A DNA stretch of 64,000 bases from Escherichia coli. Its GTDB lineage: Bacteria > Pseudomonadota > Gammaproteobacteria > Enterobacterales > Enterobacteriaceae. A program made the translations under genes and the position numbers. Below, in pieces: positions 5,679-6,092 of the stretch (positions are counted from its first letter, which is position 1; every line of letters begins with the position of its first letter). Under the pieces are notes generated by a model. The model made no database searches and was not told the origin of the DNA. It saw only the letters and a program-made list of their open reading frames with translations. Location: assembly GCF_030013205.1 (NCBI RefSeq), contig NZ_CP122648.1; one strand, written 5' to 3'.

Positions 5679-6092
5679 ACCCGCTCCAGAATGTTTTAAA
5701 CATGCATCTTGCGAACAACTTTAGGCAAACGGTGTTAGTGATGAACAAAAAACAATCAGAATCGACACCATAAAAATAAAATCACTGTAATATCAATCAA
5801 TTACAGTGGTGGTGATGACGAATAAAATTTCAAAAACTAGCCTTTTTCCGCGACGCTCCCGCCCCGTGGCAAGGCCACCCCACCGGGAGGACCCATGAAA
5901 AATGAGAGCAATTATCATTTATGCTCAATTAAACATCAGCATTATCGCAGCCCCTCACTGAAGGACTGCTGTAATGCTGATTGTTCAACATCAAAAAACC
6001 CAATCTGTTGCAAGTTATAAAAGCAACAAACGACATTGCGCGTTAAGATTTTCTTAATATTTAAGAAATATATTTTTTAATCTCATTTATTT

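What the first reader, a model, noticed from the sequence alone, without database searches (positions are those of the whole stretch)
5679..6092. Perfect 9-bp inverted repeat and GC-rich block upstream of the Nu1-like gene (possible cos/terminase-binding remnant)
CACTGTAAT-N8-ATTACAGTG at 5783-5808 and a GC-rich segment (about 5840-5890) lie in the 400-bp region upstream of the small-terminase gene, where lambdoid phages carry cosB/cosN. This may be a packaging-site remnant, which would matter if a helper phage could mobilise the element.
Basis: inference. Interest (0 to 1): 0.3.

Follow-up and report, generated by a model that had tools for sequence, protein, structure and literature searches.

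The report
Complete lambda-type cos site, orphaned prophage
The flagged stretch is the DNA-packaging site (cos) of a common E. coli lambda-like prophage that has lost its packaging enzyme and head genes; this is ordinary phage anatomy, although an unannotated conserved RNA hairpin lies beside it.

Summary
Both observations are real. The 9-bp inverted repeat (IR) is exact at 5783-5808, and 5840-5890 is 74.5% G+C against about 32% in the flanks. The IR alone is not statistically special: the window holds 55 comparable ones.

Read on the minus strand, 5679-5900 is a complete lambda-type cos:
- **cosQ:** GGGTCCT at 5888-5894.
- **cosN:** 12-nt cohesive end GGGCGGGAGCGT at 5853-5864. Phage records cdtI and Tritos begin and end exactly here.
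- **I2:** an AT-rich spacer.
- **cosB:** repeats in R3-I1-R2-R1 order.

The IR is centred on a perfect IHF consensus, TATCAATCAATTA (5791-5803). In 63 close relatives the consensus bases never change and the N positions are hypervariable. The IR arms vary and are absent from other cosB types of this terminase family.

The "Nu1-like" gene is a small terminase of Pfam DUF1441, not of the Nu1 family. The large terminase is cut after 36 codons and the head genes are gone, so cos could only be used by a helper phage. About a quarter of complete E. coli genomes carry this cos/terS type.

By-product: 5928-5989 (minus strand) is a covariation-supported RNA hairpin. It is absent from Rfam and recurs between lysis and packaging genes of many temperate phages.

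The parts
5888..5894 (-). cosQ heptamer GGGTCCT (packaging-termination signal)
   Evidence: It is identical to lambda cosQ, and 23 nt separate it from the top-strand nick, as in lambda. It is invariant in 63 close relatives. The combined cosQ...GGGCGG pattern is unique in the window, against 0.01 expected.
5853..5864 (-). cosN: predicted 12-nt 5' cohesive end GGGCGGGAGCGT. Inferred nicks lie between 5865|5864 on the minus strand and 5853|5852 on the plus strand. Conserved CG dinucleotides flank it on both sides.
   Evidence: The cdtI and Tritos records start with this 12-mer and end at ...GCCACG, equivalent to window 5865. The mEp460_4F5 record breaks 5 nt away. It matches lambda GGGCGGCGACCT at 8 of 12 positions, including the first six. 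The differences at 7, 8, 9 and 11 fall in the half reported as tolerant (PMC4669245).
5819..5847 (-). I2-like AT-rich spacer (bp 18-46 from the cos end) with A5 and T5 tracts
   Evidence: The sequence is AAAAAGGCTAGTTTTTGAAATTTTATT. It is almost invariant in relatives. It matches the description of lambda I2 in PMC4856287.
5803..5826 (-). R3-like presumed TerS-binding repeat (core TCATCACC at 5811-5818, overlapping TCGTCATC at 5814-5821)
   Evidence: It is a 24-nt direct repeat with 5729-5752: 75% identity, 74-bp spacing. It holds TCRWCAYY motif hits. It sits at bp 39-62; lambda R3 is at bp 50-65 (PMC9026076).
5791..5803 (+). I1-like IHF core TATCAATCAATTA, a perfect WATCAANNNNTTR, with an A/T tract (5772-5782) 8 nt upstream as in the lambda attP H' site
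   Evidence: It is one of only 3 perfect matches in 64 kb. In 63 relatives the consensus bases are invariant and the N positions (bp 66, 67) are hypervariable. It lies between R3 and R2, as I1 does in lambda. Its geometry matches lambda H'.
5783..5808 (.).
   Evidence: It is exact in the window and in phi458. It is a perfect DNA palindrome in only 13 of 70 distinct relatives. It is absent from the cosB of CP-1639, VT1-Sakai, Fels-1, cdtI, mEp043 and PhiR47_1.
5762..5769 (+). R2-like element TCGACACC, inverted relative to R3 and R1
   Evidence: It is a motif hit in the opposite orientation. The same position and orientation hold GATGATGAT in Fels-1 and VT1-Sakai, and ATGTCGAA in PhiR47_1. This is the weakest of the three assignments.
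5729..5752 (-). R1-like repeat (core TCATCACT at 5737-5744)
   Evidence: It is the direct-repeat partner of 5803-5826 and a motif hit.
5184..5678 (-). terS, small terminase subunit (164 aa, Pfam DUF1441)
   Evidence: PF07278, E = 2.7e-41. It is 100% identical to the TerS of the viable phages phi458, 569R4 and Ayreon. Its ATG is 187 bp from the cos end; lambda Nu1 starts at bp 191.
5076..5184 (-). 5' remnant of terL (about 36 codons) at the deletion joint
   Evidence: Homology to mEp460 stops at mEp460 position 627, equivalent to window 5076. No match to the rest of terL, the adaptor or the portal exists anywhere in 1-5075. RefSeq marks it as a partial pseudogene fused to a tail-tip pseudogene.
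5928..5989 (-). Conserved RNA hairpin of the late transcript (core GCAUUACAG-N22-GAUAAUGC at 5939-5977), 64-125 nt upstream of the cosN nick
   Evidence: Minimum free energy -36.3 kcal/mol, z = -7.9. At least 120 instances occur in IMG/VR. Across 60 distinct cores, 97.3% of cells pair, against 33-48% when partners are slid. Seven pairs change on both sides and G-U pairs are common. The covariance model scores 57-64 bits on the sense strand and 16-26 on the antisense strand. There is no Rfam match.
6111..6686 (+). Context: an opposite-strand histidine-phosphatase gene, annotated in RefSeq as LPS core heptose(II)-phosphate phosphatase, bounding the region
   Evidence: RefSeq annotation. Weak Pfam His_Phos_1 match. 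Homology to phi458 and cdtI ends at about 5977-5981, the 5' edge of the hairpin.

Best explanation
Window 5679-5900, read on the minus strand, is the complete cos site of a mEp460/phi458-type lambdoid prophage integrated beside prfC.

In an intact relative the mechanism would be as in lambda:
- This brings the R3 and inverted R2 repeats together for a dimer of the DUF1441 small terminase.
- The bound small subunit anchors a GpA-type large terminase, which makes nicks staggered by 12 bp in the GC-rich cosN, leaving the 5' overhang GGGCGGGAGCGT.
- DNA is then packaged towards terS, which is leftwards in window coordinates.
- cosQ, 23 nt upstream of the nick, is used when packaging ends at the next cos.

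The palindromic arms of the IR are most likely incidental to the IHF site, or at most auxiliary. Here the large terminase and all head genes are deleted, so this cos is an orphan that could only be cut by a helper phage of the same specificity.

Shown: sequence identity, position, conservation pattern and the deletion. Inferred: protein binding, the nick positions and any present-day activity.
For: - **cosQ and cosN.** They align base for base with lambda, and the terS ATG lies at +187 against +191 for Nu1.
- **Record ends.** cdtI and Tritos start and end exactly at the predicted nick with 33 identical bases. mEp460_4F5 breaks 5 nt away.
- **Match to viable phages.** phi458 differs at only 6 positions over -32..+186 and carries the same IR.
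- **IHF core.** It is perfect. Its consensus bases are invariant and its N positions hypervariable in 63 relatives. GTAA-N4-TTGwT is kept at the same place in every other DUF1441 cosB type and in lambda. The A-tract geometry equals lambda attP H'.
- **R repeats.** A 24-nt R3/R1 direct repeat is present here. The arrangement forward, inverted, forward is clear in Fels-1, VT1-Sakai and PhiR47_1. The published statement that Gifsy-1-type cosBs are R3-I1-R2-R1 agrees (PMC9026076).
- **Deletion.** The terL truncation is shown directly and in the annotation.
- **Single cos.** There is only one cos in the window.
Against: - No physical end mapping for this phage type was found. The record termini may themselves have been set by analogy with lambda.
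- The R2 assignment rests on an 8-mer from a degenerate motif derived partly from these same sequences.
- TerS has no sequence similarity to Nu1. Its predicted N-terminal winged-helix fold is only suggested: pLDDT is 74.8 and no Foldseek hit is significant, although MerR-type domains top the list.
- The window has an extra T between cosQ and cosN that 61 of 63 relatives lack. The resulting spacing equals lambda's.
- IR variants lean towards G-U-compatible states on the terS-sense strand, which an IHF-only reading does not predict.
Confidence: 0.82

Rival explanations
1. The IR acts as RNA. In the late (terS-sense) transcript it forms a 9-bp hairpin followed by AUUUUAUUUUU. This would be a weak intrinsic terminator or stabilising hairpin that only Q-modified polymerase reads through.
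For: The simple terminator scan picks exactly this site on the minus strand. Folding gives -13.3 kcal/mol, z = -3.3. Most arm variants in relatives are G-U-compatible on this strand. Position 57/82 occurs as C-G, U-G and U-A.
Against: The stem has only 3 G-C pairs. One terminator-like site is found against 1.7 expected in shuffles. About 17 of 64 close relatives carry true mismatches (C-U, G-A). No hairpin exists at this place in other cosB types. The T-run doubles as the A/T tract expected beside an IHF core.
Confidence: 0.15
2. The IR is a palindromic operator for a protein dimer, either TerS itself or a phage regulator. Its arms CACTGT/ACAGTG would be half-sites, with the left arm forming the distal end of R3.
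For: The left arm overlaps the 3' end of the 24-nt R3 repeat. R1 carries the related CACCGT. TerS is predicted to have an N-terminal helix-turn-helix-like domain.
Against: The outer three arm positions (bp 57-59, 80-82) are polymorphic among phages whose TerS is 99-100% identical. The half-site centres are 17 bp apart, so they are not on one DNA face. No equivalent palindrome exists in other family members.
Confidence: 0.08
3. The cos is no longer functional, even with a helper. It is a fossil that merely looks intact, for example because of the extra T at 5871-5872 or other window-specific changes.
For: The prophage is clearly decaying. The extra T is present in only 2 of 63 relatives. In lambda, small spacing changes between cosN and cosB are harmful (PMC9026076).
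Against: The insertion lies between cosQ and cosN, not between cosN and cosB, and it restores lambda's own 23-nt spacing. Every other difference from phi458 is at a site that is polymorphic among relatives.
Confidence: 0.12

Closest known systems
Bacteriophage lambda cos (cosQ - cosN - I2 - cosB with R3-I1-R2-R1)
   Same: The cosQ heptamer is identical at the same distance. The cohesive end is 12 nt with the first six bases identical and CG flanks. There is an AT-rich I2. An IHF site lies between a direct and an inverted repeat. The small-terminase start is about 190 bp from the end.
   Different: The small terminase belongs to Pfam DUF1441, not Phage_Nu1. The R repeats are TCRWCAYY-like rather than CGTTTCC-like. 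R2 and R1 are about 25 bp apart rather than about 50. The IHF core is a perfect consensus flanked by a palindrome.
cos of phages cdtI, Tritos and Gifsy-1 (lambda-like cohesive ends with DUF1441 small terminase)
   Same: The first 33 bp from the cohesive end are identical in cdtI and Tritos, and cosQ is the same. cdtI and Ayreon integrate at prfC, where this prophage sits (PMC5764929). Gifsy-1 is reported to differ from lambda at cosN bp 8, 9 and 11, and to have an R3-I1-R2-R1 cosB.
   Different: cosB diverges completely after bp 33. The TerS proteins are only 42% identical, which implies a different packaging specificity.
cos sites of E. coli phage-inducible chromosomal islands (EcCICFT073-type PICIs)
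   Same: Both are chromosomal elements that keep cosQ and cosN but lack a large terminase and capsid genes, so they depend on a helper (PMC9026076).
   Different: PICIs carry Rpp, which redirects the helper's TerS, and they have a simple cosB without IHF or R2/R1. This element keeps its own TerS and a full cosB, has lysis genes and tail-gene wreckage, and has no rpp. It is a decayed prophage, not a PICI.
IHF site H' of lambda attP
   Same: An A-rich tract, then 8 nt, then TATCAA-N4-TTR.
   Different: The context is different (recombination rather than packaging), and H' has no flanking palindrome.
For the hairpin at 5928-5989: intercistronic processing or stabiliser hairpins such as the phage T7 RNase III sites (comparison from my own knowledge, not tested)
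   Same: It is a stem - small internal loop - stem hairpin placed between genes of a long phage operon. It lies on the sense strand and starts right after stop codons.
   Different: No cleavage data exist. The conserved CAUUACA/GAUAAUG box has no known counterpart, and there is no Rfam family.

Membership tests
Lambda-type cos site | 12-nt cohesive-end sequence related to GGGCGGCGACCT, flanked by CG on both sides | tested here: met
   GGGCGGGAGCGT with CG flanks; 8 of 12 identical to lambda, including bp 1-6.
Lambda-type cos site | cosQ GGGTCCT upstream of cosN at the lambda spacing | tested here: met
   Exact heptamer with 23 nt to the nick, as in lambda.
Lambda-type cos site | cosB with small-terminase binding repeats in the order R3-I1-R2-R1, R2 inverted | tested here: inconclusive
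   The R3/R1 24-nt direct repeat and an inverted 8-mer sit at the right places. The arrangement is clear in Fels-1 and VT1-Sakai. Binding was not tested.
Lambda-type cos site | IHF site between R3 and R2 | tested here: met
   Perfect consensus, with a conservation pattern that mirrors the consensus. This holds at sequence level only.
Lambda-type cos site | Virion DNA ends map to the site (staggered nicks made by terminase) | not testable with these tools
   Support is indirect only. Three phage records end at or within 5 nt of the predicted nick.
Lambda-type cos site | Adjacent functional terS-terL operon | tested here: not met
   terS is intact; terL is cut after about 36 codons. The site is a member by sequence but is not part of a working packaging unit.
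Phage_Nu1 small terminase family (Pfam PF07471) | Match to the Nu1 profile, or sequence similarity to lambda Nu1 | tested here: not met
   The protein matches DUF1441 (PF07278, E = 2.7e-41), not PF07471. BLASTP against Nu1 gives E = 20.
Intrinsic (Rho-independent) terminator, as a reading of the IR | GC-rich stem-loop followed by a T-run, found more often than chance | tested here: inconclusive
   It fits the loose pattern with 9 pairs, 3 of them G-C, and a T-run. One site was found against 1.7 expected.
Phage-inducible chromosomal island (PICI) | Small island with int, a replication module, rpp and cos, and no lysis or structural genes | tested here: not met
   The annotation shows holins, an endolysin, Q, tail-fibre and tail-tip remnants, and its own terS. 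No rpp-like gene is annotated beside cos.
Any Rfam 15 RNA family, for the hairpin at 5928-5989 | Covariance-model match | tested here: not met
   No match at E <= 1 on either strand of 5100-6800.

The most novel reading that the evidence does not exclude

- **Anatomy.** A conserved CAUUACA/GAUAAUG box encloses a freely covarying 10-bp stem.
- **Placement.** It starts immediately after stop codons, in the lysis-to-packaging stretch of the late operon.
- **Distribution.** It occurs in many temperate Enterobacterales phages, including phi80, ST64B, phiP27, cdtI and ZF40. Some contigs carry 2-3 copies bracketing small genes.
- **Proposed function.** It would act as an mRNA processing or stabilising site. 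It may also serve as a recombination joint where gene modules are swapped: the homology break to the opposite-strand phosphatase gene lies at its edge.

A second, weaker novel reading is that the orphan cos lets common helper phages package this decayed prophage or neighbouring chromosome.
Probability: 0.4. Interest if true: 0.55.

Novelty: new member of a known kind. Interest (0 to 1): 0.28.

Why it matters
The cos itself confirms textbook lambda packaging anatomy in the very common DUF1441-terminase prophages of E. coli. It also gives exact coordinates for cosQ, cosN, I1 and the candidate R sites of the mEp460/phi458 specificity type. I could not find these described in the searchable literature.

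In practice, this decayed prophage keeps an intact-looking cos and terS. About 25% of complete E. coli genomes carry the same cos/terS type, so helper phages able to cut here are plentiful. The site could therefore act as a decoy or as an entry point for packaging.

The hairpin is the part most likely to repay further work. It is abundant, supported by covariation and unannotated.

Tried and rejected
- **mEp460 reference record as a cos anchor.** Rejected: the record starts at an extended terS ORF, not at cos.
- **Statistical weight of the IR.** Rejected: 55 comparable inverted repeats occur in the window.
- **Promoter-like hexamers overlapping the IR.** 3 found against 3.7 expected, so they are not evidence.
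- **Homology of TerS to lambda Nu1.** None by BLASTP, and no solved relative by sequence. Foldseek on a moderate AF2 model gave no significant hit, only a suggestive run of MerR-type winged-helix domains.
- **Rfam on 5100-6800.** Nothing found.
- **Literature searches.** Searches by DUF1441+terminase, by the cohesive-end sequence, by the hairpin box sequences and for the cdtI phage paper gave nothing on this cos type or on the hairpin.
- **PICI reading.** Rejected on gene content.
- **Second cos in the window**, which would allow cos-to-cos packaging. None found.
- **IR arms as conserved TerS half-sites.** Rejected, because they vary among phages with identical TerS.

Full report
**Observation.** The repeat CACTGTAAT-N8-ATTACAGTG is at 5783-5808 exactly as described. 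The block 5840-5890 is 74.5% G+C, against 33.5% and 31.1% in the two flanks. The IR is not remarkable on its own. The window holds 55 inverted repeats with arms of at least 9 nt within 30 nt, which gives about 0.36 expected in a 414-bp interval.

**Context.** The window is 100% identical to pig-associated E. coli chromosomes such as K_EC180.
- Positions 1 to about 21,300 are a lambdoid prophage lying between prfC and yjjG. Its integrase is at about 20,052-21,275.
- The gene downstream of the region, on the minus strand (5184-5678), is a 164-aa small terminase. It is 100% identical to the TerS of the viable phages phi458, vB_EcoS-569R4 and Ayreon.
- It belongs to Pfam DUF1441, not to Phage_Nu1, and shows no similarity to lambda Nu1 (BLASTP E = 20).
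- The large-terminase gene is cut after about 36 codons. Homology to mEp460 stops at window 5076, and nothing further of terL, the adaptor or the portal is present. RefSeq annotates a partial pseudogene joined to a tail-tip pseudogene.
- The prophage has therefore lost its packaging enzyme and head genes. It keeps Q, the lysis genes, terS and int.

**What the region is.** Read on the minus strand, which is the terS sense, the sequence runs ATGGGTCCTCCCGGTGGGGTGGCCTTGCCACG | GGGCGGGAGCGT | CGCGGAAAAAGGCTAGTTTTTG... The junction of the two ends of lambda reads ACGGGTCCTTTCCGGTGATCCGACAGGTTACG | GGGCGGCGACCT | CGCGGGTTTTCGC....
- The cosQ heptamer GGGTCCT (5888-5894) is identical and equally spaced.
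- The 12-mer at 5853-5864 shares its first six bases and both CG flanks with lambda's cohesive end.
- The terS ATG lies at +187, against +191 for Nu1.
- The differences from lambda (bp 7, 8, 9, 11) fall in the half of cosN that the Feiss laboratory reports as tolerant. Gifsy-1 differs at 8, 9 and 11 (PMC4669245).

Phage records give independent support. cdtI and Tritos begin with GGGCGGGAGCGTCGCGGAAAAAGGCTAGTTTTT and end with ...GCCACG, precisely at the predicted nick. mEp460_4F5 is broken 5 nt away. The pattern GGGTCCT-N(20-25)-GGGCGG occurs once in the window, against 0.01 expected. The viable phage phi458 differs from the window at only six positions over -32..+186. The GC-rich block is therefore cosQ plus cosN, and the whole cos is intact in sequence.

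**The inverted repeat.** The IR spans bp 57-82 from the cohesive end. Its centre is TATCAATCAATTA (plus strand, 5791-5803). This is a perfect IHF core WATCAANNNNTTR, one of three in 64 kb. An A/T tract lies 8 nt upstream, the same geometry as the lambda attP H' site.

I collected 80 loci encoding near-identical TerS from IMG/VR, which gave 70 distinct upstream sequences.
- In the 63 closest, every specified base of the IHF consensus is invariant or changes within its degeneracy class.
- The N positions bp 66 and 67 are the most variable in the whole cos: T/A/G and G/T/C.
- The IR arms do vary. Only 13 of 70 are perfect DNA palindromes, and the commonest form is TACTGTAAT...ATTACAGTG.
- In other cosB types of the DUF1441 family (CP-1639, VT1-Sakai, Fels-1, cdtI, mEp043, PhiR47_1) there is no palindrome, but GTAA-N4-TTGwT stays at the same position. 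Lambda has TAACTTAATGTTT there.

The IR is therefore best read as the I1 (IHF) site of cosB, with palindromic arms that are not themselves required.

**Terminase-binding repeats.**
- A 24-nt direct repeat flanks the IHF site at a 74-bp spacing: 5803-5826 and 5729-5752, 75% identity.
- The degenerate 8-mer TCRWCAYY hits four times in 5737-5821, in the order forward (twice, overlapping), inverted, forward relative to terS. About 0.07 hits would be expected there from the window-wide density. That motif was derived partly from these sequences.
- In Fels-1 and VT1-Sakai the equivalent repeats (ATCATCATC / GATGATGAT / TCATCATCTT) show the forward, inverted, forward arrangement plainly.
- This matches the published statement that lambda-like phages including Gifsy-1 have R3-I1-R2-R1 with R2 inverted (PMC9026076).
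- A moderate AlphaFold model of TerS (pLDDT 74.8) has an N-terminal strand-helix-helix-loop-strand-helix unit. MerR-type winged-helix domains head the Foldseek list, none significantly.
- Binding of TerS to these repeats is inferred.

**Mechanism and present state.** In an intact relative, IHF would bend I1 and a TerS dimer would bind R3 and R2 across the bend. TerL would then nick cosN, and packaging would run towards terS. These steps are taken from lambda (PMC9026076 and PMC4669245).

Here there is no TerL and only one cos, so the site can act only in trans.
- 1361 of 5426 complete E. coli genomes carry at least 80% of this cos+terS, so matching helpers are common.
- K_EC180 itself has only this copy.
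- Packaging from a single chromosomal cos would lack a termination site. Mobilisation would therefore need excision and multimer formation. This is speculation.
- The window has one extra T between cosQ and cosN that 61 of 63 relatives lack. It gives lambda's own spacing.

**Rivals for the IR.** On the terS-sense RNA the IR is a 9-bp hairpin followed by a U-rich run. The simple terminator scan reports it, but finds one site against 1.7 expected. It folds at -13.3 kcal/mol, z = -3.3. Several arm variants are G-U-compatible, and position 57/82 occurs as C-G, U-G and U-A. Against this, true mismatches are frequent, the stem is AT-rich, and other cosB types lack it. A palindromic TerS operator is unlikely because the arm ends vary among phages with identical TerS.

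**Unexpected by-product inside the interval.** Window 5928-5989 (minus strand) folds into a long hairpin, -36.3 kcal/mol, z = -7.9.
- **Spread of the core.** The core at 5939-5977 is 85-97% identical in phiP27 and in Klebsiella, Edwardsiella and Actinobacillus phages. It is also present in phi80, ST64B, mEp390 and ZF40.
- **Covariation.** Across 60 distinct cores, 97.3% of cells pair, against 33-48% when partners are slid. Seven of the ten inner-stem pairs change on both sides, and G-U pairs are frequent.
- **Strand asymmetry.** A covariance model finds the element upstream of most of the TerS-selected loci, always in the terS sense. It scores 57-64 bits there, against 16-26 on the antisense strand. 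In divergent copies the outermost pair also covaries (G-C, C-G, U-A) around an invariant CAUUACA/GAUAAUG box.
- **Placement.** 78 of 98 instances start within -1 to +3 nt of a stop triplet. The element always lies between the lysis genes and packaging genes of several unrelated terminase types. Some contigs have 2-3 copies bracketing an 81-aa ORF.
- **Annotation status.** It has no Rfam match and is never annotated in RefSeq E. coli genomes.
- **In this window.** Homology to phi458 and cdtI ends at its 5' edge, where the opposite-strand phosphatase gene begins.
- **Function.** An intercistronic processing or stabilising hairpin, perhaps also marking a module joint, is my best guess. It is untested.

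**Verdict.** The feature is an ordinary lambda-type cos of a very common prophage family, now orphaned by deletion. The novelty of the cos itself is low. The neighbouring hairpin is the item worth a further look.

Noticed in passing
window 5928-5989 (minus strand); core 5939-5977: A strongly conserved RNA hairpin with extensive covariation. It is absent from Rfam and never annotated in RefSeq E. coli genomes. It recurs right after stop codons, between the lysis and packaging genes of many temperate phages (phi80, ST64B, phiP27, cdtI, ZF40, Klebsiella prophages).
   Followed up: yes
L115 (IMG/VR) 2599-2948; also L175, L148, L177, L212: Two hairpin copies exactly 311 nt apart bracket a conserved 81-aa ORF (MSEIT..EQIRL..NYDTAAAK..LFDT) of unknown function, upstream of HNH endonuclease and P27-type terminase genes. 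The layout resembles a gene cassette.
   Followed up: partly
window 5076-5184 and 3298-5081 (minus strand): A deletion joint. terL is cut after about 36 codons and fused to a frameshifted tail-tip (J-like) pseudogene, so all head genes and most tail genes are missing.
   Followed up: yes
window 5871-5872: TT here, where 61 of 63 close relatives have a single T. This makes the cosQ-to-nick spacing 23 nt, as in lambda, instead of the family's usual 22.
   Followed up: partly
L004 4320-6219 (K_EC180 chromosome, just outside the window's low end, between dinI and the prophage tail-fibre genes): Adjacent SLATT-domain and reverse-transcriptase genes. This looks like an anti-phage defence module carried at the end of this prophage.
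   Followed up: no
window 8254-8328 (minus strand): A tRNA-Gly (anticodon TCC) gene inside the prophage, between the Q antiterminator region and the holin genes.
   Followed up: no
window 6111-6686 (plus strand): A histidine-phosphatase gene, annotated in RefSeq as LPS core heptose(II)-phosphate phosphatase, sits on the opposite strand where relatives carry small late-operon ORFs. A related gene occurs in phage GER2. It is probably a lysogenic-conversion gene.
   Followed up: partly
L100 (OM284015.1, 'Elizabethkingia phage EKP1') 2501-2540 and flanks: A phage recorded with a Bacteroidota host carries the same hairpin (85% identity) in the same place, downstream of its lysis genes, as the enterobacterial phages. 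The host assignment may deserve a check.
   Followed up: no
window 9768-11156 (plus strand): A DUF6731-family gene and a neighbouring hypothetical gene are inserted on the opposite strand between the Q and lysis regions of the prophage. They may be further accessory or defence cargo.
   Followed up: no
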